Numbered from the stretch's first letter, positions 8,844 to 42,800 are shown. The stretch is 64,000 bases of DNA from Alphaproteobacteria bacterium (GCA_017629245.1 JAGBXO010000003.1:1897-65896), one strand, 5' to 3'. Translations and numbers: made by a program. Notes: generated from the letters alone by a model not told the origin.

Positions 8844-9521
8844 ATGGCGCGTATTATTTGTTTTGACATTGAAACCACTGGATTTGAATACATGCGTGGT
8901 GATCGTGTAATTGAAATCGGCGCGGTAGAGGTGGTTGATGGTAAAATTACCGATAACACTTTCCACGAATATATCAATCCCGAAGGCAAGATTATTCCGC
9001 CTGATACCTATGCGGTTCATAAAATCTCAAATGCGTTTTTGGAAGACAAACCAAAAATGTCAGAAATCGCACCAAAATTTCTGGCGTTCATTGGCGACAG
9101 CCCGATTGTCGCGCACAACGGTCTGGACTTTGACTTTCCTTTTGTAAATCATGAATTGGCAATGTTAAATCTGCCACAGATTCCACGCAGTCAACAGATG
9201 GATTCGCTGGTAATTGCGCGTAATCGTGTTTTTGGGCCAAAAAGTTATACATTGGATGCGCTGGCGAAATGGTATGGGATCTCGTTAACTGCACGTGCAG
9301 ATGCACACGGGGCGTTAATCGACTCGGAAATCTTAGCCAAGGTTTATATTGAACTGGATAACACAGCACCTGCACCTGATGTGTCGGAAATTATTGCAAA
9401 GCAGCATGCAGCTATGTTGGCGCATCCCAAGGTTGGTGGAAATTTTCCGTATCGGAAATTTGAACCGCATCCCGAAGAGTTGGAAAATCATGAAAAGTTT
9501 ATTGCAGAAATAAACAAATAA
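8844..9521 (+). CDS. dnaQ: DNA polymerase III epsilon subunit (3'-5' proofreading exonuclease)
   Basis: 'ICFDIETTGF' (Exo I), 'VAHNGLDFDFPFV' (Exo II) and 'HGALIDSEILAKVY' (Exo III). Confidence 0.85.
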   Translation: MARIICFDIETTGFEYMRGDRVIEIGAVEVVDGKITDNTFHEYINPEGKIIPPDTYAVHKISNAFLEDKPKMSEIAPKFLAFIGDSPIVAHNGLDFDFPFVNHELAMLNLPQIPRSQQMDSLVIARNRVFGPKSYTLDALAKWYGISLTARADAHGALIDSEILAKVYIELDNTAPAPDVSEIIAKQHAAMLAHPKVGGNFPYRKFEPHPEELENHEKFIAEINK

Positions 9522-9550
9522 AAAACGGCATTATGCCGTTTTTATTTTTT
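9520..9550. terminator. bidirectional intrinsic terminator (acggca-ttat-gccgtt + T-run)
   Basis: Hairpin at 9525-9540 between convergent dnaQ(+) and the VirB6-like gene(-). Confidence 0.6.
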
Positions 9551-10831
9551 GCCACCGCTTTTAATAATCTTAAACCATTTAGTTGCGGTTGCCTTGGTTT
9601 TTTTAAACAGCGTTTTTGTGTCGTTTTCTAATGTGTCACCCATCGCTGTATTAATTGCCCCACCAAATTCTGTGGCGATTTTCATTGCGTTGCTGGCCAG
9701 ATACCATGTCAGTGCCGCCATCAAAACAGAAACCCAAAATTCAGAAGAGTTAAAGTTGGGTAAACTGGCGCCTGTGTTCATATCTATCAACCCCGACAAC
9801 AAGCCTGTGCATACCGCAATAACAACTGCCAATACGATAAAATGCAGTGCAGCATTAACAAATCGCATAATTTGTGTCTGCAATGATTCTGCCTTGAATA
9901 ACCCCATAAATGTGTTAAAGATATCTCCTGCAATTCCCTTGTAAGTTGTCTTGCTGATTGTTTCGGCAATTGCTGTAAATGGCAACATTATAATACCTAA
10001 GAATAAATCAGCAACCACGCCAAATGCGATAAAGGCAAATCGCCATGCCAGATATAAAAATCCTGCAACGAATGCCCCACCACACAGGAACGTAAATGCA
10101 CTGCTGCCAATGCCGCCTGACATCCATTTCCAACCAACCGCAATCGCGGTATAGCAAAACGCAGACAATCGCGTTGGCAGGCACAAGATATCGGCCGCAG
10201 CATCTGGTTTTAATAAATTTGTTTTTGATATATGGTCGGCTGCGTATTCATGTATGGCGGCGCATGTGTCTGGCAGGCTTGTCCCCACGACGCCCGATAC
10301 CATATCCAAAATGCCGTTGGCGGTATATGATGCCACGCTTAGAATTGGTGACATAACCATCATAAATGTCTCGGCCGGTCCAATGGACAAGATGCCAGTC
10401 CATATTGCAACCAATCCACCCTTTTTTAAGATTTCTATCACGTTCTTTTTTACTTCGTTTTTTCCAACAATAATCGTATATGATTCGAATGTTACCCAGA
10501 ACGCATACGCCAATAAAATAAAGATAATAACAAATCGTACCAGTGACGAATCTAACACTTCTGCAACATATGAAAAACCGTTCATAAATGCCAGGCCTGC
10601 CTTGGCCTCTATCGGTACATAGTTATCAATAACTTGCTTTTGAAAGTTCCCTTGGAACGCGGCGATATCGCCCGACAATTCTGTAGTAAACAATTCACGA
10701 TTATTTTCTGTTGCCCATGTTCCATAGTCGCCAACATCCGGCATTGCCAGATTGGATGACGCACCCCACGCCCCCCCACCCAGGCAGACGACCATCAAAA
10801 TAACAGATAAAAATTTGCGTATCATATTCAT
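9542..10831 (-). CDS. VirB6/TrbL-like polytopic inner-membrane protein (T4SS, paralogue 4 of the minus-strand array)
   Basis: Signal peptide, at least 6 TM segments and a Lys-rich C-terminal tail (KWFKIIKSGGKK). It is one of five similarly built paralogues in tandem. Family assignment rests on architecture and context, not alignment. Confidence 0.45.
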   Translation of the reverse strand: MNMIRKFLSVILMVVCLGGGAWGASSNLAMPDVGDYGTWATENNRELFTTELSGDIAAFQGNFQKQVIDNYVPIEAKAGLAFMNGFSYVAEVLDSSLVRFVIIFILLAYAFWVTFESYTIIVGKNEVKKNVIEILKKGGLVAIWTGILSIGPAETFMMVMSPILSVASYTANGILDMVSGVVGTSLPDTCAAIHEYAADHISKTNLLKPDAAADILCLPTRLSAFCYTAIAVGWKWMSGGIGSSAFTFLCGGAFVAGFLYLAWRFAFIAFGVVADLFLGIIMLPFTAIAETISKTTYKGIAGDIFNTFMGLFKAESLQTQIMRFVNAALHFIVLAVVIAVCTGLLSGLIDMNTGASLPNFNSSEFWVSVLMAALTWYLASNAMKIATEFGGAINTAMGDTLENDTKTLFKKTKATATKWFKIIKSGGKK

Positions 10832-10836
10832 CTGCT

Positions 10837-12333
10837 TTATGAACCTTTTTTACCCATTTTGGCAGTGGCTTTTTTTGCGATTTGTTCTGGCACATGCCAA
10901 ATCTTTTGTCCCAAATCATGTATCCATGCGCCATAGTCAAATTCTTCCTTGCCACTCAGGCTAACATCTTCGCCTGGTATTGGCATCTTGACAGACCCTG
11001 CTGGCAATAATTTATCAACTTTGGGGCTGATTGCATAATAATATAAAAAGAACAGGCACATCATCATTAGCAGAAAATCAAACCCATCTCCCAGGAAATC
11101 GAATGCGCCTGGATATTTTCTTTCAACCTCGGCCTTGCGTGCGGTAAAGCAGGTTGTGAATTTATCTTTATCCATTTCACCGCCACTTAATGCCACGCGT
11201 TCACAGTCTGAGAAAACATTCATGACAGATTGTGTTTTTGCATCTGGATTTTCTGGTGCGCCAGACAACAATGGTGGGAATATCGCACTGTATCCATCAG
11301 CGGGTCCTGGCATAAATGTATCTGCAGTATATGAAACAGTTGCAAACACAATAAGAACTTTCAACGTAATTGCAACCAGCCTGACCGCTGACGCGGCCAG
11401 CATTCCAACCGCCTTGCCCATTAATCCGCTGGCTTTTGCCCATACTGGTTCAAACGCGTATGCTGCCAGCAACAGCGGCAAAAATATAATCAAGAATACC
11501 AGTTTAAATACCACAGATAATATCTGGAAAAACAAATCAAATCCAATAATCAAGAACATTAATACTAATGTTAATCCGGCCAGCCATGTAAATGCGCCTC
11601 CACCCATCCCCAGCCATGCATAGTTCATCATTGCAAAACCACCCGCAGCCCCCGCCAGCATAACTGAGTTTATATTTCCCATCACACACATAAAGGGCTG
11701 CAAAATCGGATTTAATACATCTGATTGGCCATCTTGTTTTTTTGATGGTGTCAGTGCGCCACATTGTGCAGCATTGCTGACACCTGTTGCGGCCATCCCC
11801 AGTTCTGCGCCAACATACAGCACAGGCGTAATTGTAATTTGTGAAACAGTCTTCATTGCTGTTACGCCACCCAGCCCCAGCATTCCCATAACGGCACCAA
11901 CCACCATCAGTCGCAGTACTTGTTTGCTGATTGGTTCAAACCAAGATTTAAAATCAATACCTGTTTCTTTGCCGTCCAGATTTGCTGTTTGCTTTGCAGC
12001 GTTAAAAATATGTTTAACACTGTGTATAAGAATATACAGCCCCAGTCCCAACACCATAATTATCCACAGGCTGTCAACCATGACACCCCAAAATCTTTCG
12101 GCTGCATCCCCAATAACTGAAAACAAGTCTGCGATATATCCGCACATAAAGCATCCATTCGCAGTCGCGAGATCGCCATTTTCCACGCCAATCGCGTTCA
12201 TGAAATTATCTGCGCTGGTATATGTTAATGCTGCGCCACCGATTGAAGAAGACAAATACCATATCCCCAAACCCAATGCGATCAGGCACATTATAACCCG
12301 AACTGCTATCAAAATCAGTTGTGCCTTCCACAT
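10837..12333 (-). CDS. VirB6/TrbL-like polytopic membrane protein (paralogue 3)
   Basis: N-terminal TM/signal, multiple TM segments, a Gly-rich 'GMGGGAFTWLAG' segment and a basic C-terminal tail. Start overlaps the upstream gene's stop by 1 nt (TAATG). Confidence 0.45.
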   Translation of the reverse strand: MWKAQLILIAVRVIMCLIALGLGIWYLSSSIGGAALTYTSADNFMNAIGVENGDLATANGCFMCGYIADLFSVIGDAAERFWGVMVDSLWIIMVLGLGLYILIHSVKHIFNAAKQTANLDGKETGIDFKSWFEPISKQVLRLMVVGAVMGMLGLGGVTAMKTVSQITITPVLYVGAELGMAATGVSNAAQCGALTPSKKQDGQSDVLNPILQPFMCVMGNINSVMLAGAAGGFAMMNYAWLGMGGGAFTWLAGLTLVLMFLIIGFDLFFQILSVVFKLVFLIIFLPLLLAAYAFEPVWAKASGLMGKAVGMLAASAVRLVAITLKVLIVFATVSYTADTFMPGPADGYSAIFPPLLSGAPENPDAKTQSVMNVFSDCERVALSGGEMDKDKFTTCFTARKAEVERKYPGAFDFLGDGFDFLLMMMCLFFLYYYAISPKVDKLLPAGSVKMPIPGEDVSLSGKEEFDYGAWIHDLGQKIWHVPEQIAKKATAKMGKKGS

Positions 12334-13532
12334 TATTTAGATCCCTCTTTTTTTTCTTCTTTTCCGCCATTTAGGATTATTTTACCAACATTAACGGTTG
12401 TATCATACACATTTTTTGTCAGGCTCATCAAATCATCAGCAATCTTTTCACCGTATTCTTTCTTTTCTTCTACTTCAAATGCACCCAATATCATTTTTGT
12501 AATTTGTGGAATTTGTTTGTAAACATAATTCAACACATACATCAGTGCGATACAGCTTGTCAGTGTCAGTGCCTCTAGATTTTCTGCGCTTAAATCTTTT
12601 TCAAATATATCGCCACTGGTAATTGCGTTCATCAGTTCAACATTGCTAACATCCGTTGCCGAAAAGAACTTTGCAATAATCGCCATAATAACAGTATATG
12701 TTATAATCACAGACCCCAGTGTGACGATTGAACTGATTAAGTTTTTAATTTGGTTAACGCCGACACCTTTGCCAATCTTTTTTATTACATCGGGTACACT
12801 GTCTGCGCCATTAAATGCGAATGTTGCCAAAGACAACGGGAAAAAGAATGCAAAAAACGCCATTGCCACAATCGCATCTGCGAAATAGCAGCAATACCTG
12901 AAAAATAATTTAAAAAATCCCCATGCTAAATACAGACCGATAAAGAACAGAACGATATGTTTTATCAATGCGCCGATGCCGAACAGTGCGCTCCATGAAA
13001 ATGCGCTATCCATCACTGCGATTCCCAGTTTTATATAACTTTGGAATTGTGTAATGGTTGTTTTCATAATGTTTATAATTGTGTCACGCAGTTCTGGACG
13101 ATAAAATCCATCATCTTTAATTTTAACAGGTTGATATGTGACGCGTTCATCAACGTCTGCCTGGGTTTGATTAATCATCGCCTGGGAATAGGTCAGGGTC
13201 ATTTGTGCAATTGGTTCAAATGTAATCATTGTGATAAATCGTGGTACGATAACCCCTGCGCCCATCAAAGAGATGGCAACAATAGAATTAATAAAAACTT
13301 TTTGAACAGATTTTTTATAAAATGTATCTTCAAAATTATTTTTTGCATTCTGCCAGATAGCGTTAATAACATACACTGTAAACATAGCCATCAGCAATAT
13401 CAGGCATAAATCGCTGAAATAATCATAAAATCCTGCTGCTGCAGTGGATATAATCTGGAACAGTCTGTCAAACACCGGACAGCCCCAACACTGAACCGTA
13501 TCTCCTACCAAAGCCATCATTGTGTTTGTCAT
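12333..13532 (-). CDS. VirB6/TrbL-like polytopic membrane protein (paralogue 2)
   Basis: Multi-TM with a K/E-rich C-terminal tail (GGKEEKKEGSK). ATGA overlap with the upstream gene. Confidence 0.45.
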   Translation of the reverse strand: MTNTMMALVGDTVQCWGCPVFDRLFQIISTAAAGFYDYFSDLCLILLMAMFTVYVINAIWQNAKNNFEDTFYKKSVQKVFINSIVAISLMGAGVIVPRFITMITFEPIAQMTLTYSQAMINQTQADVDERVTYQPVKIKDDGFYRPELRDTIINIMKTTITQFQSYIKLGIAVMDSAFSWSALFGIGALIKHIVLFFIGLYLAWGFFKLFFRYCCYFADAIVAMAFFAFFFPLSLATFAFNGADSVPDVIKKIGKGVGVNQIKNLISSIVTLGSVIITYTVIMAIIAKFFSATDVSNVELMNAITSGDIFEKDLSAENLEALTLTSCIALMYVLNYVYKQIPQITKMILGAFEVEEKKEYGEKIADDLMSLTKNVYDTTVNVGKIILNGGKEEKKEGSK

Positions 13533-14800
13533 TTTTTCTTAATCCATCCTGCGGCTTTGCCGATTGTTTTACCTAAACTCTTTACGCCACCGGTAAATGT
13601 TTTTGCGTCGCCTTTGACCTGGTTATACAGTCCATCCATACCACTGCCGATATATTTCTTTAACTGTGCCTGGGTTAAATCAAATATTTTGAACATCAAA
13701 TAAAATGTCAGTATCGAAGAAATCCACATCACAGAATGTCCGCCAAATCCCATTGCTGCATTTGCCGATGTTGGAACATTGCTGTATGCGCTGCCCCCGG
13801 CGGCAACAACAAAGACAGATGAATTCCAATTAAATAACGCTTTGATTACCGCAATGTTGATACATAATATAAACGAACATGCAATCATCGTTACGATTAA
13901 CTGTTGCAGTGCCTTAGTTATACCATTAAAGGCCGGCCAAACATCAAACCATTTATCGCTTTTTTTAAATACATATGTTAATACATAAAAAGGGTACAAT
14001 ATCAGTTGGATTCCAAAATTAAATATACCTTGTATTATCAACAGTGCCATGAACAAATTACTGGCCACGAATGTTGAAATTAATATAATTCCAGTCACAA
14101 TATTCAAAAAATCTTCCCCACCATGTGGAATTAATGTCAGTAAACCACGCAGTCCATTGAACAAAGAATCAAACCCGCGTTTAATCATTTGATTGTTCGC
14201 TGTTGACAGGTCAAATACAGGTTGAACCAAGAATTTACATGAATCTTCAGAAATCCAATCTTTCTCCAGTATTTCAGGCGGACATTGCACAGGTTGTGCA
14301 TTTGCACCAACTTCGTTAATTGTTTCGGTAATTCCGTGTGTGTACGCCGCCCCCAGTTGCAGGAACGGATTAACCAGCCATTGTGTCAAGAATACTGGTT
14401 TTAATTGCAACAGCACCAGTGTTGCAATCACGGCACGAATACACGGTTTCAGTGTGTCTTCTGCGATTTTGTATCCTGTCATTTTCCCGTCTGCCATTTC
14501 GCCACCACCCGACATTCCCAGGAAAGACAACCAGTTTTTTGGGAAATACATTTTTACCAGACTTAATGTCAATGTTATCCCCAAGAAAGTCCAAACAAGT
14601 ATGTTTATAATCCCAATGTGATTGCCGTCGCCAACAAAATATTCATATATTCCTGTTGCGGTCATCATCAGCGCATCCAGCACCATTGGCACAAACGGTG
14701 CCAGATTCAGCGTATCAACAACACTGGCCTGTGCCATACAGGGTATCAGCGCAAATACGCAGAAATATAAGATTTTTAACAATTTTTTTCTGTAAAACAT
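13529..14800 (-). CDS. VirB6/TrbL-like polytopic membrane protein (paralogue 1, first gene of the minus-strand operon)
   Basis: Signal peptide 'MFYRKKLLKILYFCVFALIPCMAQA', multi-TM, basic tail 'AAGWIKKK'. Confidence 0.45.
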   Translation of the reverse strand: MFYRKKLLKILYFCVFALIPCMAQASVVDTLNLAPFVPMVLDALMMTATGIYEYFVGDGNHIGIINILVWTFLGITLTLSLVKMYFPKNWLSFLGMSGGGEMADGKMTGYKIAEDTLKPCIRAVIATLVLLQLKPVFLTQWLVNPFLQLGAAYTHGITETINEVGANAQPVQCPPEILEKDWISEDSCKFLVQPVFDLSTANNQMIKRGFDSLFNGLRGLLTLIPHGGEDFLNIVTGIILISTFVASNLFMALLIIQGIFNFGIQLILYPFYVLTYVFKKSDKWFDVWPAFNGITKALQQLIVTMIACSFILCINIAVIKALFNWNSSVFVVAAGGSAYSNVPTSANAAMGFGGHSVMWISSILTFYLMFKIFDLTQAQLKKYIGSGMDGLYNQVKGDAKTFTGGVKSLGKTIGKAAGWIKKK

Positions 14801-14850
14801 TCTCTACTTTAATATTTATCTTTTCAATTATATCACATTTAGGGCAAAAT

Positions 14851-16167
14851 ATGATATACTTAAAAACAATGAACCGGTTAAAAAAATTTTGGATTATGTT
14901 TTTATCGTTCTTGCCATTTACGGCCGGGGCGGCATCGCCATTGATTATTGGTGGTATTGCGGGTGCTGGTGTAATCGCAGGTTTTTCAATATATCGGTCA
15001 TTTTCCCCAGTGAATATGGCAGATGCATACAAGTTTTTTTCCAGTTGTTGGTCCTGTCAAATGTTTTCGGACATAATGTTATCCATGTCGCGAATTTTGC
15101 CGAATATTTACACGGCTTTGGGCAAGACTATTATTCCATTTGCAATTATCCTGACGGCCATATTTTTTGCCTGGCGTCTGACCAGTAATTTTTTAAACTC
15201 TAAGGTTGAGGCCCCCTGGTCAATTGTCAGTACTTTTACCAATCATTGTGTCAAACTGGGTTTTGTTTGCATCATATTGTTGGCGCCGTTGCCACGTTTA
15301 GTATCTGAGATTGCGATTCAACCAATATTTAATGTTGGACTGTCGTTGAATCGTGCTGTTGTTCATGACGATTCGTTTGATGCGTGTGTTATCGCAACTG
15401 CAATTGCGGACCCAACATCGATTGATATCAAAGCTGCCAACCAAGGGGCGTATTCACCGCGTCTTCGTCATAATTTGGCCTGTGAGTTGGCAGGTGTACA
15501 TCAGATGACTGGGCTGGGGATGACTGTTGGATGGACAATGTTAAATATGTCGTTTAATTCAGACTATATGCATAAGATTTTGTGGGGGATTCCGATTTTT
15601 CCAAATGTTCCTATATTATTTGCAGGATTGTTAATATTGGTCTTGTTTTTTATGGCGTTAATACCTGTGCCACTATATTTTCTGGAAATTTTTATAAAAC
15701 TGTCTATGGATTTGGTGATGTTGCCATTGATGTTTTTAGCTTGGTTATTCAATGGTTGGCAGATATCTTTGCCTGGGGCGGGAAAAACGATTCGCGGAAT
15801 AATTGATGATGTAATAAATGGTACGCTTGGATTGGCGATGACAGGGATATTTGTATCCTTTGCAATAATGTTTTTGAACGCGATATTTGGTGATTGGGGC
15901 GGAGCAACCGTATTAGAGACTGCTTTAAATTCCAGCGAATCGGCCGGCTCTAAAATCTTGATGGATGCGCTAATGATGCGCAACGACAGCATGATAACAA
16001 TCATATTAATGGGTATTTTTGTTACTATGTTTATGAATATGATTCCAGCCCTGTCCAAGACATTGTTTAATGTTCAGATATCAGATGATTTCTATAGTAC
16101 AACGAAAAAGAATGCGGATATTATTTGGAAAAACCTGAAAAAATGGTACGAAGTTATGAAAAAATAA
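14851..16167 (+). CDS. VirB6/TrbL-like polytopic membrane protein (divergently transcribed fifth paralogue)
   Basis: Start ATG at 14851 (alternative 14869, 'MNRLKKFW...'). The upstream part of ORF 14656 overlaps the minus-strand gene and was rejected. Signal peptide, Gly-rich 'IIGGIAGAGVIAG', multi-TM, basic tail 'KNLKKWYEVMKK'. Confidence 0.45.
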   Translation: MIYLKTMNRLKKFWIMFLSFLPFTAGAASPLIIGGIAGAGVIAGFSIYRSFSPVNMADAYKFFSSCWSCQMFSDIMLSMSRILPNIYTALGKTIIPFAIILTAIFFAWRLTSNFLNSKVEAPWSIVSTFTNHCVKLGFVCIILLAPLPRLVSEIAIQPIFNVGLSLNRAVVHDDSFDACVIATAIADPTSIDIKAANQGAYSPRLRHNLACELAGVHQMTGLGMTVGWTMLNMSFNSDYMHKILWGIPIFPNVPILFAGLLILVLFFMALIPVPLYFLEIFIKLSMDLVMLPLMFLAWLFNGWQISLPGAGKTIRGIIDDVINGTLGLAMTGIFVSFAIMFLNAIFGDWGGATVLETALNSSESAGSKILMDALMMRNDSMITIILMGIFVTMFMNMIPALSKTLFNVQISDDFYSTTKKNADIIWKNLKKWYEVMKK

Positions 16168-16235: not shown

Positions 16236-16745
16236 ATGACGAAGTTTCCGATTCTTTATTGGCCACGCAAGACAACTGGTGACAATGAATACCAGTTGGC
16301 GCGCAAGGTTATAAACAGTACAACCGGTGTAATGCCTGAAGTTTATGCAGATGATATTGATATTGCATCTGTATTGGCTGCGAACCCAAATGCAACCATC
16401 TACTATCCAGTGTTTTGTGAATCGACTGGCTGGTGGGGTGAATTATTGGGTGGTGATGCGGTTGTTTGTGACAAATTAATAATTTCCCCTGAATGTCAGT
16501 TAATGGTTATTGGGACAAAAAAGTCATGCAAATCCCATGGAAAAACACAACTGTTGGCGGCAGAGATTTATCCGGCCAGCGGTTTTTTTAAGAAAATGAA
16601 TTCTGGTATTGCGACCGTTGCGGATATGTTGGCGACCAATACCGGTACTATATTGGCACTGTTTTCTGGTCATAATCAGTCTCAGTTTATAAATGTGCTG
16701 GAATCGACGGGAAATTCATATTTGGGCTGTATTGGTCGATATTAA
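16236..16745 (+). CDS. hypothetical protein (169 aa)
   Basis: Clean ORF downstream of the VirB6-like gene; no recognisable motif. Confidence 0.45.
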   Translation: MTKFPILYWPRKTTGDNEYQLARKVINSTTGVMPEVYADDIDIASVLAANPNATIYYPVFCESTGWWGELLGGDAVVCDKLIISPECQLMVIGTKKSCKSHGKTQLLAAEIYPASGFFKKMNSGIATVADMLATNTGTILALFSGHNQSQFINVLESTGNSYLGCIGRY

Positions 16746-16819: not shown

Positions 16820-17032
16820 ATGAAACAAGGCATTCATCCTGAATATCATGAAATTAACGTCACCAGAACTGACGGCAAAACAATTAAAATGTATTCTTCT
16901 GTCAAGAAAGACTTATTGTTGTCTACTGACAATTTGAACCATTCTGCCTGGACGGGGCAGCGTTCAAATTCTGGTGAAAAAGGTGCACGCGCCGCCGAAT
17001 TCAAAAGCAAGTTTGCTGGCTTTAATTTCTAA
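16820..17032 (+). CDS. rpmE: 50S ribosomal protein L31
   Basis: 'MKQGIHPEYHEINVT...' gives a typical L31 N-terminus. 70 aa. Confidence 0.8.
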   Translation: MKQGIHPEYHEINVTRTDGKTIKMYSSVKKDLLLSTDNLNHSAWTGQRSNSGEKGARAAEFKSKFAGFNF

Positions 17033-23365: not shown

Positions 23366-24673
23366 ATGCGTCGTATTACAATCAGTGTATTGTCGGTATT
23401 TGTTGTGTTGCCTGCGATTGCGGGTGGTCGTTTGCCTGTGGTAAATATTGCCTCGGGTGGTGTTTCTGCGCGGGCCGCATTTGGCGAAGCGGATACCAAA
23501 CCCGTTACGGTTGCGGTCACCACACAAAAAAAACAGGCGTCGCCCACACGGACCAGACGCGTTGTTTCGCGCAGTGCCACGCCGGTCCAGGCGGTTGATG
23601 TGGGTGAAAAAATTGTTGCATCAAATGATGTTTTATCGCCACGTCGCCCCAGCAATGATTTATGGGCAAAAAGTGACAACGCGTTGCGTATGCCAATGCC
23701 CAGTGAATTTTCTGTGATACGCACCGATTCTGTTTTACCAGAAGAAAGTTTGGATAAAACCTTTGCGGTGGCACCTGTGACCAAATCGGTCGCCCCCGCG
23801 CCACGCATGGCCAAAACGCAGGTTGCGCCAACGACTGCGCCGGCCACATCGGAATCTGACCTAGATACACAAATTGCGCGACTGGCCCAATTGCAAAAAC
23901 GCGCCGATGACAGTGTGCGTACCGTTTCGCGTCGTGTCATTTCTGCGCCAATTGCTGAAATGCAAACACATTCAGAACCGCGCACGGTTGCATCTGCCGC
24001 GCCTGTGAAAAGCGAATCTGTATCTTTACATCGTATGGTTGTTCCAATGGAAACAGACAATGTTGTAATGCGTGCCGTTGAAAAAACGAAATCTCCGCGC
24101 ATTGCAGCGGTTCGCGATGATATGACAAAAATGAATCCGAATGAATTGCGTCGTGCGTTTCGTAAAACATTTTTAGAAGAAAATAAGCATCTGTCCACAT
24201 TTTCAATAGACTCGCGCTTTGACACAGCCAGTGATATGTCCGCATCAATCGAAGGGTTCACTGCAAATCACGACCTGTCCGAAGGTACTGGGATACGTCC
24301 GCTGGAAATCAAGATTAAATTCCGCAATGCAGATTCTGCCCTGTCGCGCGACAATTATACATTATTAACCGAATATGCTGGTATCGTTGTAAACAAACCG
24401 ACACGCGCAATTCAGGTTGCAATACCGTCATACATGACAATGAAATCTGACGAACGCAAATTGGCGGCACGTCGTCTGGCAATTATTGAACAGGCCCTGA
24501 CTGATAATGGTGTTTCAAAACAGCGAATTGTACCTGTTCTATCTAACCGTGATGAGCCTAGTTTTGTTCTGCGTATTATCTCGGGCGATGAATATGAAAC
24601 ATTAACGCAACAGTCACGAAATATGTTTGGTGATACTGTGTCTAAAAAGACTTATAAAAGTATGTCGTGGTAA
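23366..24673 (+). CDS. secreted T/A/P/S-rich protein of unknown function (possible OmpA-like C-terminal segment)
   Basis: RBS aGGGAAGAAAG + ATG. Signal peptide 'MRRITISVLSVFVVLPAIAGG'. The antisense 363-aa ORF (23170-24261) was judged an artefact. C-terminal 'RRLAIIEQALTDNGVSKQRI' is weakly OmpA-like. Confidence 0.5.
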   Translation: MRRITISVLSVFVVLPAIAGGRLPVVNIASGGVSARAAFGEADTKPVTVAVTTQKKQASPTRTRRVVSRSATPVQAVDVGEKIVASNDVLSPRRPSNDLWAKSDNALRMPMPSEFSVIRTDSVLPEESLDKTFAVAPVTKSVAPAPRMAKTQVAPTTAPATSESDLDTQIARLAQLQKRADDSVRTVSRRVISAPIAEMQTHSEPRTVASAAPVKSESVSLHRMVVPMETDNVVMRAVEKTKSPRIAAVRDDMTKMNPNELRRAFRKTFLEENKHLSTFSIDSRFDTASDMSASIEGFTANHDLSEGTGIRPLEIKIKFRNADSALSRDNYTLLTEYAGIVVNKPTRAIQVAIPSYMTMKSDERKLAARRLAIIEQALTDNGVSKQRIVPVLSNRDEPSFVLRIISGDEYETLTQQSRNMFGDTVSKKTYKSMSW

Positions 24674-25389
24674 AGTTCTTTAATAGTGTTATTGGCTTTT
24701 TATTTCCGCCGGCGTGTCCGCTTTGTGATACGCCGGTATCTATTCATGGCGAATTGTGCGCCGAATGTTGGGCCGCAATTGATTGGATTACATGGCCTTA
24801 TTGTGTGCGGTGTGGTTATCCATTCCCGGCGGATTTAGACCTGGGTGGCACGCCACTTTGTCCAATATGTGCGTCGGGAAAAACTGAACTGGATTGGATT
24901 CGCTGTGCATGTGTATATGATGCGGCGTCGCGTTCTGCAATGTTGCCGTTCAAGCATGGTGGGCGAATAAAATATGCACGCTTTATGTCGCGTGCAATGA
25001 TGTGGGCGTTGCGTGATATTAATGTTGATGCTGATATTGTAATGCCTGTGCCGCTGGCGAACCGCCGACTGTTTTCGCGTGGCTATAACCAGGCGACCCT
25101 ATTGGCGCGTCCTATTGCACGCACATTGGATGTGTGTCTGGATGTTGATTCTGTTCGTCGCAAATTCAGGCCAGACATGGGGCACAAAAACGCGCGTCAG
25201 CGTCTGGAAAATATTCATGGTGTATTTTCGGTTGTGCGGCCTGATAAAATCCGTGGTAGAAAAATTTTGTTGGTTGATGATGTTATGACGACTGGCGCAA
25301 CATTTTCAGAATTGTGTCGTGTATTAATGCGTGCTGGTGCATCAGCGGTTTATGGTGTGACATTTTGTCGTGTTGTGCGCACGATTTAA
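24667..25389 (+). CDS. comF: ComF/GntX family phosphoribosyltransferase-domain protein
   Basis: N-terminal Cys4 'CPLCDT...CAECW' and a C-terminal PRTase motif 'ILLVDDVMTTGAT'. Confidence 0.75.
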   Translation: MVKFFNSVIGFLFPPACPLCDTPVSIHGELCAECWAAIDWITWPYCVRCGYPFPADLDLGGTPLCPICASGKTELDWIRCACVYDAASRSAMLPFKHGGRIKYARFMSRAMMWALRDINVDADIVMPVPLANRRLFSRGYNQATLLARPIARTLDVCLDVDSVRRKFRPDMGHKNARQRLENIHGVFSVVRPDKIRGRKILLVDDVMTTGATFSELCRVLMRAGASAVYGVTFCRVVRTI

Positions 25390-37475: not shown

Positions 37476-37925
37476 ATGGCGCGCAAGGAATTTGTTCGTT
37501 TAATGGAAGAAAATATTTGGACATTGGATAAAATTGCCGATAAGTTGCGATTGGATCGTGTAGATACAACCGGTTATCCGCGCCAATTGATGTCTATTTT
37601 GGTGCGTCTGCACAATGGTGGGCGTGCGCGTCTAAAGGATATTGCGCGTCGCGAACATGTGTCCGCACCGAATTTGTGTGCGGCTTTTAGAAAACTGGAA
37701 TCGGATGGTTTGGTTATACGCACGATTGATGAAGATGATCGTCGCAATACGTGGTATTGTGTGTCTGAATCTGGTGCCGAATTGGCGCGTGTTGCAATGG
37801 ATTTGTTTCGCGGTGGTATTGAACGCATTTTTGCCAATGTTTCGCGCGAAGATGAAGTGCGTCTGACCCAGGCATTGCGTACCATGCATGAAGTTTTAAA
37901 AAAGGTGGAGTTAGGTAATGAATAG
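37476..37925 (+). CDS. MarR-family transcriptional regulator
   Basis: Winged-HTH 'RLKDIARREHVSAPNLCAAFRKLESDGLVIRTIDEDDRRNTWYCVSESG'. It is the first gene of the efflux operon. Confidence 0.75.
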   Translation: MARKEFVRLMEENIWTLDKIADKLRLDRVDTTGYPRQLMSILVRLHNGGRARLKDIARREHVSAPNLCAAFRKLESDGLVIRTIDEDDRRNTWYCVSESGAELARVAMDLFRGGIERIFANVSREDEVRLTQALRTMHEVLKKVELGNE

Positions 37926-39249
37926 TTTTAAGTGTGCCTCGATGGGGGGTGTTTTTTGCGCTTTGTTGGTTGTGTCGCCATCATTCGCAATAGATTTGTC
38001 ATTAAATGATGCGGTTGAAAAAATAATGCACGAATCGCACGATTTGAAAAAGGCATCAGCTAATTTATCGCGGGCCGAAGCGTCATTAGATGCCGCGAAT
38101 GCTAATCGTTGGTTTAAATTGGATGGTTCTGCATCATATATGAACATGGTAAATGTTGAAAATCCATCGGAATCCCAGAAAATTGAATTGCCACCGTCTT
38201 TAGGCGGTTTGATTCATGAAACCTTAAAAGATACATCAATTGCGTTTGAAATTCCTGATAATATTTTCCAGGCGGGTTTGACATTGACTCAGCCGCTGTA
38301 TACATTCGGCAAAATCGGCAACGCGGTAAAGTCTGTGCGTGCGGCGGTCAAAATGGCCGAAAAATCCCAGGAATTAACCCGTCGTTCTGTACGTTATGCT
38401 GCAATTGACCTGTATTGGACAGCCAAGATGACAGATGAAATTGTAAAGTTGGCAGAAAACGATTTAAAAAACGCTCGCGCTGCAAAACGTAATTTAACAT
38501 CTGCCGGTCGCGCAAATCGCAGTAATTTGTTAAAAATTGAATCTGATATCGCAACCAAAGAAATCAATGTTTCTGATGCAAAATTTGACCGTGATACTGC
38601 GCACAGAATGTTAAAAATTTTGGCGGGAATTGATATCGCCGAACCATTGGTTTTGACGGATAATTTTCCATCTGATTTTGGCGAATTAAATGCAGGAAAT
38701 TTAAAGACTACACCCCAATGGGAAATTCTGGAACAACAGGCCAACATGTATGAACGCCTGGCACGTTCACAACGCGCAAACGGATATCCAACATTGGCGG
38801 CAACTGCATCGTATACATATTCATCAATGTCGGGTGATATTGGACACTTGTTTGATAAAAAAGGTGGCCAGTCTGCATCATGGGGTGTTGCGCTTCAAAT
38901 GCCGATATTCAGCGGTGGTCTGAATCGCGCCAATGCCACGATAGAGGCAATGAATGCCGAAGCCGCCCGTCAGGACCTGGCCCAGGCAAAAAAAATAACA
39001 ACCGAAGAATATGATAACGCGGTGCGTCAATATAACCATTTGCGTGATAATTTATCCACATTGGAAAATGCGCGTAACCTGGCGGCCAAGACATATACAC
39101 TGTCGCAAAATCGTTTTGCATCTGGCCAGACATCTGCGGTTGAACTGGCAGATGTATCGGCGGGGCTGTATCAATTGGATTTGGCGTTATTAAGTACCAA
39201 GTACAAGATTTTAATGTCTGCGGAAACTATCAAGAAATTGGGTGAATAA
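37918..39249 (+). CDS. TolC-family outer membrane efflux protein (OMF)
   Basis: Signal peptide. Duplicated helical/beta architecture typical of OMF proteins. 8-nt overlap with marR. Confidence 0.7.
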   Translation: MNSFKCASMGGVFCALLVVSPSFAIDLSLNDAVEKIMHESHDLKKASANLSRAEASLDAANANRWFKLDGSASYMNMVNVENPSESQKIELPPSLGGLIHETLKDTSIAFEIPDNIFQAGLTLTQPLYTFGKIGNAVKSVRAAVKMAEKSQELTRRSVRYAAIDLYWTAKMTDEIVKLAENDLKNARAAKRNLTSAGRANRSNLLKIESDIATKEINVSDAKFDRDTAHRMLKILAGIDIAEPLVLTDNFPSDFGELNAGNLKTTPQWEILEQQANMYERLARSQRANGYPTLAATASYTYSSMSGDIGHLFDKKGGQSASWGVALQMPIFSGGLNRANATIEAMNAEAARQDLAQAKKITTEEYDNAVRQYNHLRDNLSTLENARNLAAKTYTLSQNRFASGQTSAVELADVSAGLYQLDLALLSTKYKILMSAETIKKLGE

Positions 39250-39252
39250 GAA

Positions 39253-39867
39253 ATGGAAAAAATACACGATACAATACATTCTAAACGGTTCAAGCATATT
39301 ATGCATGCGACCCTGGCCTTGTTAATGATTGGCTGGGTTATATTTCGCTTTGGTGCGGTCGCGTCTGAAAATGCGCGCCAGGTATTTAATGCATCACGTG
39401 TTGCGGCAGATGTTGGCGCGCCTGTTAATACAATACGTGCAGAATATAAAACCGGTGTTTTATATGAACCATTATCTGTCCAGAATAATCGTGCCTATGT
39501 GACTGGTGCGCGCGCAAAAAAATTGCGCATCGGCGGTCGTGTTGGGGCGGGCGAAATCGTGTCTGTATCGCGTAACCTGGATTTGGAAACAGGTATGTTT
39601 GTTGTGCGTACACGTGGTGTTGCAGATGGTCTGCATTATGCAGAATTTTCTGCTGATGGATTCTTTGTTCCGTTGTATGCGGTTCGTGATAATACGGTCT
39701 TGGTTGCGGTCGATGGTGTTGCAACATCACGCACAGTGACCGTTGCAAGCCAAGATTCAGAAACCGCATACATAACATCTGGTCTGCGGTCTGGTGATAT
39801 TGTTATTTTATCCAGTGTTAATTCAGGTGACAAAGTCCAATTAAAATCAAATCAGGGGGAAATATAA
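39253..39867 (+). CDS. short periplasmic adaptor (HlyD/RND membrane-fusion-protein-like), 204 aa
   Basis: N-terminal TM anchor followed by beta-rich segments. Located between the OMF and the RND pump. Roughly half the usual MFP length. Confidence 0.55.
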   Translation: MEKIHDTIHSKRFKHIMHATLALLMIGWVIFRFGAVASENARQVFNASRVAADVGAPVNTIRAEYKTGVLYEPLSVQNNRAYVTGARAKKLRIGGRVGAGEIVSVSRNLDLETGMFVVRTRGVADGLHYAEFSADGFFVPLYAVRDNTVLVAVDGVATSRTVTVASQDSETAYITSGLRSGDIVILSSVNSGDKVQLKSNQGEI

Positions 39868-39870
39868 GCC

Positions 39871-42800
39871 ATGTTAAAGTTTTTTGTTCGTCGTCCAATA
39901 ACGACATTAATGTTTGTTCTGGTATGGGTTGTTTTGGGATTGGTATCTTTCCCAAAAATGAACATTGAACGCACCCCATCGGTTGATTTTCCAATGGTGA
40001 CAGCAACTTTTGTCTATCCTGGTGCTGCCCCCGAAGAAATTGAATCCCAGGTTGTAAAGCGCGCCGAAGATGCAATTTCCGAAGTGTCCGAATTAAAAAA
40101 TATTATTTCATACGCCTATGAAAACAGTGCCTTTGTTATGGCAGAATTTAATCTGGGCGTAAATGTTAATGACAAGGCCACAGAAATAAAAACAAAACTG
40201 GATTCCTTGATATCGGAATTCCCCGACAATATGGACCAGCCTGTTGTTGAAAAGTTAAATCCATTACAAGAATCTGTTGTTGATATTGTTCTGCACGGTG
40301 CTGATGCACGTGACCTGGAAGAATACATAGACAATATCTTATCTACAAAAATAACTGCAATCAGTGGTGTGGCCAGTGTATCAACCTTTGGTGGTCGTGA
40401 ACGTGCAATTCGTGTTGCGATGAATCCTGATCAAATGGTTGCTCGCGGTGTTACCATTATGGATATTGTTGCGGCGTTGGGGGCACATAATTTGAATGTG
40501 CCTGGTGGAAAGATTGAACGTACCGTTGATTCTTCAAATGTTCGTTTTATTGGTGAATTTGCATCGGTTGATGAAATTGCAAATCTGCGCCTGACGACCG
40601 TCGAAGGCAATAATTTTAAATTATCAGACATTGCAACAATTACCGATGCCGCGCGTGATATTGAAACCGGCGCGCGCTATAATGGTAAATCAGTTGTTGT
40701 TGCATCTGTCGTAAAATCATCAGACGGAAACGCAATAAATATTTCTCGCGCATTGCGCGACCGCATGCCCGAACTTCAGACGGATTTATCCAATCGTTTT
40801 CCCGGTGCGGAAATGTTAATTGCATCAGATTCGTCAGTTGCCGTATCAGACGAAACAGACAGTACAATCAATGGTATTGTTTTAGGTGTTTTGTTAACTG
40901 TGCTGGTGTTGCTGGTGTTTACCAAAAATTGGCGTTCAACTGTTATTGCAGGTGTCGTTATTCCTGCATCCTTATTTGCTGGATTCTTCTTTATGGATGG
41001 ATCTGGATTTACAGTAAATGCAATGACCTTGTTGGCGTATTCGTCTGCGCTGGGTACATTGGTTTCAAATGCGATTATTTTGATTGAATCTGCCCTGCAA
41101 GAATTACACGCCGGCAAAAAACCAGAAGACGCTGCCATTGATGGTACGAAAAAGGTTGCGGTATCCGTTCTGGCGGGTGTTGGAACAAATGTTGTTGTGT
41201 TTTTACCATTGGCGTTTATGGGGGGTATTGTTGGTCAGTTCATGGTCCAGTTTGGATTAACAGTTGTATATTTAACATTATTGTCTTTGATGTTCTCGTT
41301 TACATTAACACCAATGATGATTGCGCGCTTTTTGCGTTTAACGAACAAGAACAAAGAACCTAAAAAAACAGGTTCCCTGAAACAAGATGTTCAAGATGTA
41401 ACCCGTACAGGTATGCAGCGCTGGTATGAATATCAGTATGCGCATCCATGGCGTGTTGTTGGCTTGGCGGCGGCGATATTTGTTGCCTCTACTATGCTGA
41501 TGCGATTTGTTGGTAATGAATTTTCGCCATCAACTGATGCGAATGAAATTACAATCAGTGCGCGTGCGCCAATGGGTGCAACCTTTGAACGGTCAGAATC
41601 TATCGCAAAACAGATAGAGCAGGGGTTAACCCAATTCCCCGAAGTAAAATCAACAACCGTTAAAATTGGTGAACGCGGTCTGCAGAATATCAATGTGACG
41701 GTTGAACTGGTGGATGCGTCTGAGCGTGATATTTCTGACAAGAAATTGGCACAACAAATTTTGCCTGCAATATCAAATATTGCCGATGCTGAAATTCAGA
41801 TTCGTGCTGGTGAAGCAATGTCATCGGGTGTTTCGTCTGACCTGGTGCTAAATATTTTTGGCCCAGATGACACAACCCGCGAAGATTATGCCACGCGTAT
41901 CATTGATATTGTAAATCAAATCCCCGAAGTTCAATCGGCGGTTCGTGCGCAACAGTTGCCGGCCATGGAAACCCAGTTCACTCCAGACCAAGAAAAAATG
42001 AATTTCTGGGGCATTCAAAATTCTTATGCAGCCCAGACATTGCGTACCGCGCTGTTTGGAAATGACGATTATAAATACAAAGAAAACGGCGAAGAATATC
42101 CAATAATTTTGGAATTTGCAAAACCATTTAAGAACACCGCCTTGTTTGACAATGTGTATGTAAATTCACAAAAAGGTATGGTTGCGTTATCGTCACTGGG
42201 TACGGTCCAGACTGCACGCGCCACCCCAGAAATTCGTCGTGAAAATAAAAACAGGTACACCGAAATAGATATTAATATTGGTAAGTCAACCATGGGCCCT
42301 GTTCAGCAAAAGATTCAGGCAGAACTGAATAAAATAGACTGGACACCGGGGTATTATGCGGAATTTGGTGGTATGTCTGACACCCAGGCTGAATCCGCCA
42401 GTGAAATTGGTATGGCGTTTATGTTGGCGACGATATTAACATTTATGTTGCTGGCGGCGATATTAAATTCCTTGGCGCATCCGTTTACAATTGCGACATC
42501 TATTTTGACCAGTTTTACCGGCGTATTTATCATGATGTTCTTGTCTGGTGCGACAATGAATGTTGGTGCAATGTTGGCGTTTGTTATGTTGGTGGGGCTG
42601 GTGGTTAATAATAACATTTTGGTGTTGGAACCTACGATTAATCGTGTTGCCACCGGTGAACAGCCATTTGCCGCCCTGTGGGCAGAACTGCGTGATAAAA
42701 AGAACATGGTGCTAATGACATCTATTGCTGTTGTTGCGGGTATGGTGCCACAGTTATGGTCTGTTGACGGTATGAAGGTCGCAATGGGTGCAGTTATGAT

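What the first reader, a model, noticed from the sequence alone, without database searches (positions are those of the whole stretch)
9542..16167. Five tandem VirB6/TrbL-like paralogues with no adjacent virB3/virB4; four translationally coupled and one divergent
All five share signal peptide, polytopic core and Lys-rich cytoplasmic tail. Gene junctions are TAATG or ATGA overlaps, indicating coupling. Expanded VirB6 arrays are a hallmark of Rickettsiales rvh T4SSs, but there they follow virB3-virB4. Here the array is flanked by dnaQ/uvrD and rpmE, and the fifth copy is on the opposite strand.
Basis: partly seen in the sequence, partly recalled or inferred. Interest (0 to 1): 0.6.

Follow-up and report, generated by a model that had tools for sequence, protein, structure and literature searches.

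The report
Five divergent VirB6-like membrane protein genes
A tiny-genome, uncultured gut bacterium (Candidatus Enterousia) keeps a strictly conserved set of five very different copies of VirB6, the inner-membrane piece of a type IV secretion machine; other parts of that machine lie 40 kb away, so the usual ring of five identical subunits may here be built from five different ones.

Summary
The five ORFs are real. They lie in fixed order in about 80 species-level Candidatus Enterousia genomes (order Rs-D84, Alphaproteobacteria, under 1 Mb). None of the five matches Pfam TrbL/VirB6 directly, and pairwise similarity is near noise, except C with E.

Profile methods nevertheless join all five into one superfamily. 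Two remote members of it pass Pfam's TrbL cut-off. AlphaFold models of the two least similar paralogues (A and C) each have R388 TrwI/VirB6 as best PDB match, though weakly (E about 0.03, TM at most 0.47). Topology also fits VirB6.

A VirD4-like coupling protein lies 1.7-7 kb from the array in three other Enterousia species. No VirB4 was found in the sequence I could reach.

Three AT-rich relatives also carry exactly five tandem paralogues, with positional orthology for two positions.

Best reading (about 0.65): these are divergent VirB6 subunits of a scattered chromosomal type IV secretion system. They may form a heteropentamer that mirrors the VirB6 homopentamer. This is a new variant of a known kind, of moderate interest.

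The parts
9542..10831 (-). Paralogue A (429 aa): last gene of the D-C-B-A operon. It has a signal peptide, a periplasmic loop with 4 Cys, a TM hairpin ending in the 'MLPF' motif, and a Lys-rich tail.
   Evidence: ORF; hydropathy. hhalign links it to D (95%), E (85%), B (84%) and C (74%). AF2 pLDDT is 67.8, and the Foldseek top hits are TrwI/VirB6.
10837..12333 (-). Paralogue B (498 aa): N-terminal anchor, GCFMC (CxxC) helix, periplasmic Cys pair, and a TM hairpin with 'FLPL'. It is the best-conserved positional orthologue (position 4) across lineages.
   Evidence: Reciprocal best hits with L085_p4, L086_p4 and L087_p4. Its HMM aligns onto the Pfam-TrbL region of P0339 and P0316.
12333..13532 (-). 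Paralogue C (399 aa): no signal peptide. It starts with an invariant QCWGC helix. Its start overlaps D's stop (ATGA) and its stop overlaps B's start (TAATG).
   Evidence: AF2 pLDDT is 63.7 and the Foldseek top hits are TrwI/VirB6. Its family profile finds TrbL-positive relatives.
13529..14800 (-). Paralogue D (423 aa from the ATG at 14800): first gene of the operon. The signal peptide with an AxA site is conserved across species, so the long start is preferred over the 402-aa gene call.
   Evidence: hhalign links it to A at 95% and to E at 58%. It is recruited by jackhmmer.
14801..14868 (.). 68-bp divergent intergenic region between D and E; presumed bidirectional promoter region.
   Evidence: Start-codon analysis and conservation. 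Promoter-like hexamers are present here, but across the region as a whole they are no more frequent than in shuffled sequence, so function is inferred.
14869..16167 (+). Paralogue E (432 aa from the conserved ATG at 14869; the mechanical ORF starts at 14656). It is the divergently transcribed copy, closest to C, and has an SCWSC helix.
   Evidence: It corresponds to the first or second gene of the same-strand five-gene arrays in L086 and L087.
9521..9543 (.). 10-bp-stem hairpin flanked by T-runs on both strands. It is a bidirectional terminator-like site shared by the array (after A) and dnaQ.
60138..60902 (-). virB8 homologue (up to 254 aa; true start uncertain). First gene of a T4SS core module about 40 kb from the array.
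   Evidence: Pfam PF04335, 30.9 bits against a cut-off of 23.2.
58590..60116 (-). virB9/CagX homologue (508 aa, with a signal peptide and a long C-terminal extension).
   Evidence: Pfam PF03524, 84.8 bits against 34.2. NCBIfam VirB9, E 6e-15. PDB hit to Xanthomonas VirB9 6gyb.
56141..58573 (-). virB10/TrbI homologue (about 810 aa from the ATG at 58573, with a Cys-rich C-terminal extension).
   Evidence: Pfam PF03743, 66.8 bits against 35. NCBIfam T4SS_VirB10 at 4e-17 and ComB10 at 2.5e-14. PDB hits to CagY and ComB10.
16236..16745 (+). Gene F (169 aa): always next to E and extremely conserved, with no family match. Whether it belongs to the system is unknown.
   Evidence: It is unrelated to A-E by hhalign. 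It is absent beside the arrays of L085-L087.

Best explanation
**What it is.** The five genes encode extremely divergent members of the VirB6/TrbL superfamily. These are polytopic inner-membrane subunits of a chromosomal VirB/VirD4-type type IV secretion system (T4SS). In Candidatus Enterousia its genes are scattered around the small genome.

**Shown.**
- The five form one ancient paralogous superfamily.
- Order and number are fixed across about 80 species.
- D-C-B-A is a tightly packed operon (two overlapping junctions and one 5-nt gap) that ends at a hairpin. E is read from a 68-bp divergent region.
- virB8-virB9-virB10 lie 40 kb away in the same window.

**Inferred.**
- Each protein has its N-terminus in the periplasm.
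- A CxxC helix and a Cys-paired central loop sit in the periplasm, probably disulfide-stabilised.
- About five membrane helices include a conserved hairpin ending in 'LPf'.
- The Lys-rich tail lies in the cytoplasm.

**Proposed mechanism.** The five different subunits assemble one of each into the five-membered VirB6 platform that forms the base of the T4SS stalk. That platform would sit under a VirB8/VirB9/VirB10 scaffold. It would serve this partner-dependent, transporter-poor bacterium in exchanging macromolecules with another cell.
For: **One superfamily.**
- hhalign probabilities between the families are 40-97%, except B-D (0.2%) and C-D (2.9%). Against unrelated membrane families they are at most 0.5%.
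- Shared motifs line up colinearly.

**Link to VirB6/TrbL.**
- P0316 and P0339 pass Pfam's PF04610 gathering score. P0324 reaches 21 bits.
- In those proteins the B, D and E HMMs align onto the TrbL-matched hairpin region.
- Foldseek against 350,542 PDB chains puts TrwI/VirB6 chains first for model C (ranks 1-3, prob 0.99-1.00, TM normalised to target length (TMt) 0.42-0.47).
- It also puts them first for the most dissimilar paralogue A (ranks 1-3, 5, 6 and 8, prob 0.72-0.98 for the first five of these).
- Hydropathy and charge give a periplasmic N-terminus, a large central Cys-containing loop and a K/R-rich C-tail. This matches the published VirB6 topology, which I cite from my own knowledge of Jakubowski et al. 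2004.

**A T4SS is present.**
- VirB8, VirB9 and VirB10 are in the window, all above Pfam cut-offs.
- A divergent coupling protein with Walker A and B motifs lies 1.7-7 kb from the array in L024, L044 and L036. Its best PDB profile hits are Cag5 and TrwB.
- virB10 lies about 6 kb from A in L019.
- A relative, P0332, fuses the VirB6-like part to a Peptidase_M23 cell-wall hydrolase.

**The number five.**
- VirB6 is a pentamer in the R388 T4SS (PMC9259494).
- Exactly five paralogues occur in Enterousia and in three AT-rich lineages.
- Positions 3 and 4 are reciprocal orthologues in all four lineages.
Against: - No direct Pfam or NCBIfam match for the five window proteins.
- Profile-profile comparison with a 120-sequence TrwI subfamily is at noise level: at most 2.7% for the families and 3.6% for the superfamily core. 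That narrow profile also fails to detect the Pfam-positive P0316 and P0339.
- Sequence profiles of A, C and the whole superfamily find no VirB6 in the PDB.
- Foldseek E-values are only 0.03-0.04, with TM 0.31-0.47 and rmsd 9-15 A. The models are of medium confidence (pLDDT 64-68).
- In P0316 and P0339 the strong match to families C and E covers the N-terminal 200 residues. Pfam TrbL covers the following region, so part of the link is colinear architecture rather than one continuous alignment.
- VirB4, VirB11, VirB2, VirB3 and VirB5 were not found in the 64-kb window or the 1.7 Mb of related loci. That search used single R388 queries, which also missed the window's own VirB9 and VirB10.
- The heteropentamer is pure inference.
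Confidence: 0.65

Rival explanations
1. The five proteins are VirB6-like T4SS subunits, but they are alternatives rather than partners. Each would form its own homo-oligomer, or swap in under different conditions, substrates or partners. This resembles the specialised duplications proposed to regulate the Rickettsiales rvh system, or the amplified surface components of the Bartonella Trw system.
For: - Multicopy VirB6 in rvh is described as a 'specialised duplication' hypothesised to autoregulate secretion (PMC11077975).
- E has its own promoter region, separate from D-C-B-A.
- Conservation differs between paralogues: 22% of positions are at least 90% conserved in A, against 35-38% in B, D and E.
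Against: - All five are retained, in fixed order, in every one of about 80 species of a lineage with genomes under 1 Mb. The number five recurs in three other lineages.
- Overlapping stop/start junctions favour equimolar co-expression.
- The paralogues are anciently diverged (at most 22% identity), each with its own conserved motifs. This is unlike recent variant copies.
Confidence: 0.2
2. The family descends from VirB6 but no longer works in a T4SS. It would have been taken over as an independent inner-membrane channel or uptake device in an organism that lacks standard transporters.
For: - Rs-D84 genomes lack standard sugar, amino-acid and peptide transporters. They encode many hypothetical membrane proteins that may serve transport (PMC12306168).
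- The array is not next to any T4SS ATPase in Enterousia or in L085-L087.
- No VirB4 was found in the sequence available.
Against: - A VirB8-VirB9-VirB10 module is kept in the same genome, and a coupling protein in related species. Keeping these in a genome under 1 Mb implies a working T4SS, which needs a VirB6.
- No other VirB6 candidate was seen.
Confidence: 0.1
3. The proteins are not VirB6 homologues at all. They would be a lineage-specific family of polytopic envelope proteins (a transporter or an envelope-biogenesis factor). The TrbL and TrwI signals would be artefacts of hydrophobic, long-helix composition.
For: - No direct Pfam hit.
- hhalign against TrwI is at noise level.
- Foldseek E-values are above 0.01.
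- Spurious hits to FAM70, a eukaryotic membrane family, occur in 12 of the 102 orthologues scanned (best E 3.5e-6); the precomputed Pfam marks place some of them in family A. This shows that composition-driven matches do happen.
Against: - Two superfamily members exceed Pfam's curated TrbL cut-off by 8 bits.
- Two separately modelled paralogues both pick TrwI first among 350,542 chains, with Foldseek probability 0.94-1.0. The other helical membrane proteins score below 0.4; only a designed soluble helical-repeat protein (7udn_B) reaches 0.51-0.94.
- Topology, the Lys/Arg-rich tail and the 'LPf...f' hairpin motif align with TrwI 'GPLFILALIW'.
- T4SS genes are in the same genome.
Confidence: 0.15

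Closest known systems
VirB6/TrbL family (Pfam PF04610), e.g. TrwI of plasmid R388 (PDB 7O3V, 8RT9, 8RTD) and Agrobacterium VirB6
   Same: - All-helical polytopic inner-membrane protein with a periplasmic N-terminus, a large central periplasmic loop and a basic cytoplasmic tail.
- Best structural match for models of A and C.
- Remote relatives pass the Pfam cut-off.
- The genome encodes VirB8/9/10.
- The pentameric stoichiometry of VirB6 (PMC9259494) equals the number of paralogues.
   Different: - No direct profile match.
- An extra N-terminal CxxC helix and a Cys-paired loop.
- Five distinct genes instead of one.
- Not embedded in a virB operon.
Rickettsiales vir homologue (rvh) T4SS with tandem RvhB6 paralogues
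   Same: - Tandem multicopy VirB6-like genes; Rickettsia has five (my own knowledge, and PMC2653234 in the list).
- T4SS genes scattered in separate islands.
- Reduced-genome, host- or partner-dependent alphaproteobacteria.
- 'Multicopy RvhB6' is listed as an rvh hallmark (PMC11077975).
   Different: - The array does not follow virB3-virB4.
- One copy is inverted.
- The proteins are smaller (399-498 aa) and do not match PF04610.
- The organism belongs to order Rs-D84, not Rickettsiales (PMC12306168).
- Duplication of VirB4/8/9 was not seen or could not be tested.
- Homology of the arrays to each other was not tested.
Bartonella Trw T4SS amplification (repeated trwJ-trwI-trwH units)
   Same: Several VirB6 (TrwI) copies occur in one chromosome. 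Multiple Bartonella TrwI clusters appear.
   Different: Those are recent, similar copies (51-63% identical to R388 TrwI) and clear PF04610 members. From my own knowledge, they are amplified together with VirB5 and VirB7. Here the copies are ancient (at most 22% identity) and only the VirB6-like gene is multiplied.
Helicobacter ComB DNA-uptake T4SS (ComB6, ComB8-10)
   Same: A chromosomal T4SS split into separate gene groups. The window's VirB10 scores nearly as well on ComB10 as on VirB10 and hits the ComB10 structure 2bhv. A ComFC-like gene is in the window.
   Different: ComB has a single ComB6. A VirD4-like coupling protein exists in Enterousia relatives, and from my own knowledge ComB lacks one. 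The direction of transport is unknown here.

Membership tests
VirB6/TrbL (PF04610) | Significant match of the protein itself to the TrbL/VirB6 profile | tested here: not met
   No hit at E<=1 for any of the five. One of 102 orthologues reaches E 7e-4. hhalign against a TrwI-subfamily profile gives at most 3.7%. PDB sequence-profile searches find no VirB6.
VirB6/TrbL (PF04610) | Homology to bona fide family members through intermediate sequences | tested here: met
   The family-C profile finds P0316 and P0339 (E 2e-8 and 5e-4 in 1.84e9 proteins). Both pass the PF04610 gathering score. jackhmmer from them recruits all of A-E and no controls.
VirB6/TrbL (PF04610) | Fold like solved VirB6 (long helices, TrwI of R388) | tested here: inconclusive
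VirB6/TrbL (PF04610) | Polytopic inner-membrane topology: periplasmic N-terminus, large central periplasmic loop, cytoplasmic C-terminus | tested here: met
   Family-averaged hydropathy and charge distribution fit. This was a crude predictor, and orientation was inferred from the positive-inside rule and Cys content.
VirB6/TrbL (PF04610) | Occurs in a genome or locus with other T4SS components (VirB4, VirB8-10, coupling protein) | tested here: inconclusive
   VirB8/9/10 are found 40 kb away in the window. A T4CP-like gene lies near the array in 3 related species. VirB4, VirB11, VirB2 and VirB3 were not found in the sequence available. The whole genome could not be searched.
VirB6/TrbL (PF04610) | Assembles as a five-membered ring at the base of the T4SS stalk | not testable with these tools
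   No multimer prediction or experiment was possible. The pentamer is known for R388 (PMC9259494).
Rickettsiales rvh T4SS | Multicopy tandem VirB6-like genes | tested here: met
   Five paralogues: four in tandem plus one divergent.
Rickettsiales rvh T4SS | VirB6 array directly downstream of virB3-virB4 | tested here: not met
   The flanks are uvrD/dnaQ and F/rpmE. No VirB4-like ORF occurs in 83 loci of +-10 kb.
Rickettsiales rvh T4SS | Duplicated VirB4, VirB8 and VirB9; no VirB5 (hallmarks listed in PMC11077975) | not testable with these tools
   Only one VirB8 and one VirB9 were seen in 64 kb.
Rickettsiales rvh T4SS | Host lineage is Rickettsiales | tested here: not met
   The window matches Candidatus Enterousia MAGs. 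These are assigned to order Rs-D84 (PMC12306168). NCBI lists the genus as Alphaproteobacteria incertae sedis.
Bartonella Trw-type amplification | Recent, similar copies of a trwJ-trwI-trwH unit | tested here: not met
   The paralogues share at most 22% identity. No VirB5- or VirB7-like genes are interleaved.

The most novel reading that the evidence does not exclude
The five anciently diverged VirB6-like proteins are obligate partners. They would form a heteropentameric, and therefore asymmetric, base of a T4SS stalk. This five-gene design would be a conserved solution in several reduced-genome alphaproteobacterial lineages (Rs-D84 and AT-rich relatives), and possibly homologous to the five RvhB6 genes of Rickettsia. 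If so, it would explain why intracellular and partner-dependent alphaproteobacteria keep multiple VirB6 genes.
Probability: 0.25. Interest if true: 0.75.

Novelty: new variant of a known kind. Interest (0 to 1): 0.55.

Why it matters
**An open question about T4SS.** Why Rickettsiales keep four or five VirB6 paralogues has been unresolved since the rvh system was described. Here a second reduced-genome alphaproteobacterial group, outside Rickettsiales, keeps exactly five VirB6-like genes. They are far more diverged, fixed in order across about 80 species, and five also occur in three more lineages. Since VirB6 is now known to be a pentamer, this gives a concrete hypothesis that multimer modelling can test: one of each, forming a mixed ring.

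**Annotation of Enterousia.** The result gives a first functional label to about 1,000 'hypothetical proteins' per family in gut and rumen metagenomes. It also shows that Candidatus Enterousia has type IV secretion hardware. Enterousia is so far described only as metabolically dependent, with unexplained membrane proteins. The hardware is a candidate for how it interacts with a partner cell.

**Caution.** The homology rests on transitive and medium-confidence structural evidence, and the organism is uncultured.

Tried and rejected
- **Direct family scans.** Pfam and NCBIfam scans of the five proteins and two neighbours found nothing.
- **Pfam scan of 102 orthologues.** TrbL appeared once. FAM70 appeared 12 times, some of them in family A. 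I judge this a compositional artefact: FAM70 is a eukaryotic family and the hits are not shared by the other paralogues.
- **PDB sequence-profile searches.** Searches with families C, A and a 34-sequence superfamily alignment gave no VirB6, only noise.
- **Comparison with TrwI.** HMMs of A-E and hhalign against R388 TrwI alone, and against a 120-sequence TrwI subfamily, stayed at noise level. The core alignment does pair the 'LPf' hairpin with TrwI 'GPLF'. The TrwI profile also misses the Pfam-positive P0316 and P0339, so this negative is weak.
- **Other T4SS parts.**
  - Single R388 proteins found only the coupling-protein fragment.
  - They missed the window's own VirB9 and VirB10, so absence of VirB4 by this test means little.
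- **Metagenome scan.** A scan with the coupling protein gave 9 loci, but none had A-E or VirB8-10 nearby.
- **Small protein before the arrays.**
  - The 78-88 aa protein preceding the arrays in L085-L087 was tested as VirB2 or VirB3.
  - There was no significant match.
- **Accessory genes of L085-L087.** They have no homologues near the Enterousia arrays.
- **Gene F as a sixth paralogue.** Rejected (hhalign 0.1-0.2%).
- **Promoter and terminator scan.** Promoter-like sites are no more frequent than in shuffles. Only the hairpin at 9521-9543 is notable.
- **Literature.** There is no report of secretion systems in Enterousia or Rs-D84. The 2023 Enterousia paper and the supplements are not held.

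Full report
**What is there.** The coordinates hold five real ORFs:
- A 9542-10831(-), 429 aa
- B 10837-12333(-), 498 aa
- C 12333-13532(-), 399 aa
- D 13529-14800(-), 423 aa
- E on the + strand

The mechanical ORF of E starts at 14656. Conservation across species begins at the ATG at 14869, which gives 432 aa. For D the long start at 14800 is preferred, because the signal peptide and its AxA site are conserved.

Read in coding orientation:
- D/C overlap as ATGA.
- C/B overlap as TAATG.
- B/A are separated by 5 nt.

A 10-bp-stem hairpin with T-runs on both strands (9521-9543) closes both the operon and the convergent dnaQ. D and E are separated by 68 bp.

The flanks are uvrD and a dnaQ-like exonuclease on one side. 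On the other side lie a 169-aa gene (F), rpmE at 16820-17032 and an inositol monophosphatase.

**Where it comes from.**
- Protein C is 100% identical to a hypothetical protein of a 'MAG: Alphaproteobacteria bacterium'.
- A scan of one genome per species returned 80 loci, many titled Candidatus Enterousia, from ruminant, horse, chicken and human gut.
- Enterousia belongs to the uncultured order Rs-D84. Its genomes are under 1 Mb and have no TCA cycle, respiratory chain or standard transporters. A partner-dependent lifestyle has been proposed (PMC12306168).
- In about 78 of 83 loci the order is F-E | D-C-B-A. The arrangement is therefore strongly constrained, not a chance run of hydrophobic ORFs.

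**Are the five paralogues?**
- Pairwise, only C-E (22% identity, phmmer 1e-10) and weakly B-C are detectable.
- With alignments of about 80 orthologues each, hhalign gives C-E 97%, A-D 95%, A-E 85%, A-B 84%, A-C 74%, B-C 72%, D-E 58% and B-E 40%. These are near full-length, colinear alignments. B-D and C-D are not detected, and F is unrelated.
- The same test against MraY and FtsW families, built from the same loci, gives at most 0.5%.
- jackhmmer from three remote relatives, with a conservative database size, recruits every member of all five families and no control.

The resulting alignment shows:
- a shared CWxC helix, present in B, C and E and absent in A and D;
- a 'P...(E)P' motif;
- a Cys pair in the central loop, present in A, B, D and E;
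- a hydrophobic hairpin ending in an invariant Pro ('LPf').

Hydropathy and charge indicate a periplasmic N-terminal part, a short basic cytoplasmic loop, a Cys-containing loop of 85-110 residues, further membrane helices and a Lys-rich C-terminal tail. C lacks the N-terminal signal or anchor that the other four have.

**Are they VirB6/TrbL?**

Direct tests fail:
- No Pfam or NCBIfam hit for the five.
- TrbL appears in only 1 of 102 orthologues (E 7e-4).
- No PDB hit by sequence profile.
- hhalign against a 120-sequence TrwI subfamily is at noise level.

That last negative is weak, because the TrwI profile also fails to see proteins that Pfam accepts as TrbL.

Three indirect lines agree.
1. 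*Bridging sequences.*
   - A profile of family C, searched against 1.84 billion representatives, finds only 100 proteins, so the family is narrow.
   - Among the remote hits, P0316 and P0339 exceed Pfam's TrbL gathering score (34.2 and 33.6 bits against 25.9). P0324 reaches 21 bits.
   - In these proteins the C/E-like part covers the N-terminal 200 residues or so, and TrbL covers the following hairpin core. The B, D and E HMMs also align onto that core.
2. *Structure.*
   - The AlphaFold model of C (pLDDT 63.7) has TrwI/VirB6 chains of the R388 T4SS as its three best PDB matches (prob 0.99-1.00, TM normalised to target length (TMt) 0.42-0.47, E about 0.04).
   - The model of A, the most dissimilar paralogue (pLDDT 67.8), again has TrwI chains at ranks 1-3, 5, 6 and 8.
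   - No match reaches E 1e-3, so this is suggestive, not conclusive.
3. *Topology.* It fits the VirB6 model (and my own knowledge of the Agrobacterium VirB6 topology).

I put the VirB6-superfamily assignment at about 0.8.

- The window carries virB8 (60138-60902), virB9/CagX (58590-60116) and virB10/TrbI (56141-58573) on the minus strand.
- All three are above Pfam cut-offs and are backed by NCBIfam and PDB hits to VirB9, CagY and ComB10.
- No virB11 or virD4 follows this module.
- In three other Enterousia species a divergent coupling protein lies 1.7-7 kb from the array. It has the motifs APPGxGK and FVLDEMP, and its best PDB profile hits are Cag5 and TrwB, though weak.
- In another species virB10 lies about 6 kb from A.
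- VirB4, VirB11, VirB2 and VirB3 were not found in the window or in 1.7 Mb of related loci. The single-sequence queries used were insensitive, and the rest of the genome could not be searched.

The picture is a scattered chromosomal T4SS, as in Rickettsiales.

**Beyond Enterousia.** The contexts of three remote relatives (28-34% GC) each show the following:
- a 78-88 aa two-helix protein;
- exactly five tandem paralogues on one strand, flanked by housekeeping genes;
- no recognisable T4SS ATPase within 10 kb.

Reciprocal best hits identify position 4 with B and position 3 with C in all four lineages. Positions 1 and 2 correspond partly, and position 5 (A) is too diverged to place. The five-gene array therefore predates these lineages, and E was inverted in Enterousia.

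**How it probably works.**
- VirB6 forms the pentameric, membrane-inserted base of the T4SS stalk in R388 (PMC9259494).
- Five is also the number of distinct, individually conserved, co-transcribed and partly translationally coupled paralogues here.
- This suggests a one-of-each heteropentamer replacing the homopentamer, sitting beneath the VirB8/9/10 scaffold.
- The step from 'five genes' to 'mixed ring' is inference.
- Rival readings are listed with their tests: alternative homo-oligomers, a VirB6-derived channel working without a T4SS, and no VirB6 homology at all.
- The direction and cargo of transport are unknown. Options are effector or DNA export, or ComB-like DNA uptake. The VirB10 match to ComB10 and a ComFC-like gene keep uptake open.

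**Verdict.**
C has no signal peptide, one junction is not an overlap, and paralogy needs profile methods.
- It is not a member of the rvh system as defined.
- It is a new, unannotated variant of the multicopy-VirB6 theme in a different order of reduced-genome alphaproteobacteria.

Noticed in passing
window 56141-60902 (-): A virB8-virB9-virB10 module lies between yidC/lspA and tRNA-Trp/secE/nusG. It has no virB11 or virD4 after it. VirB10 carries a Cys-rich C-terminal extension of about 200 aa, and VirB9 a long C-terminal extension.
   Followed up: partly
window 16236-16745 (+): Gene F (169 aa, 6 Cys, no signal peptide) has no Pfam or NCBIfam family. Yet 64% of its positions are at least 90% conserved across 76 species-level genomes, far more than A-E (22-38%). 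It is always beside E but absent beside the arrays of other lineages.
   Followed up: partly
window 4476-6686 (+): A 736-aa protein has an N-terminal membrane helix, a long Arg/Ala/Thr/Asn-rich low-complexity stretch and a Cys-rich C-terminal domain, with no family match. It is found near the array in only about 32 of 83 loci.
   Followed up: no
L024:3449-5698; L044:1-1314; L036:3-1310: A divergent VirD4/TraG-like coupling protein (Walker A APPGxGK, Walker B FVLDEMP) lies 1.7-7 kb from the array in three Enterousia species. Its relatives in metagenome loci L088-L091 (50-53% GC for L089-L091) have no A-E or VirB8-10 genes nearby.
   Followed up: partly
L019:20120-21172: In this species the virB10 gene lies only about 6 kb beyond paralogue A. 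The distance between the two T4SS gene groups therefore varies between species.
   Followed up: no
P0332 (653 aa; contigs up to 190 kb): This relative has a VirB6-like N-terminal part (B and C HMMs about 1e-13) fused to a Peptidase_M23 domain at residues 429-524. That is a membrane platform joined to a cell-wall hydrolase.
   Followed up: no
L085:5811-19851; L086:1567-17535; L087:1488-14079: AT-rich relatives carry a 78-88 aa two-helix Lys-tailed protein followed by five tandem paralogues of 437-858 aa. These face a conserved 336-420 aa membrane protein and a 504-921 aa protein. L085 and L087 also have SUKH-like 147/148-aa proteins, 180/188-aa proteins and an RHH_4 gene. None has a known family.
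   Followed up: partly
window 24667-25389 (+): A ComFC-like protein (double zinc ribbon plus phosphoribosyltransferase domain) follows a 435-aa ORF with no family match (23366-24673).
   Followed up: no
window 37918-42903 (+): An outer-membrane efflux protein (OEP) and an AcrB-type pump are separated by a 204-aa ORF (39253-39867) with no family match. A membrane-fusion adaptor would be expected at that position.
   Followed up: no
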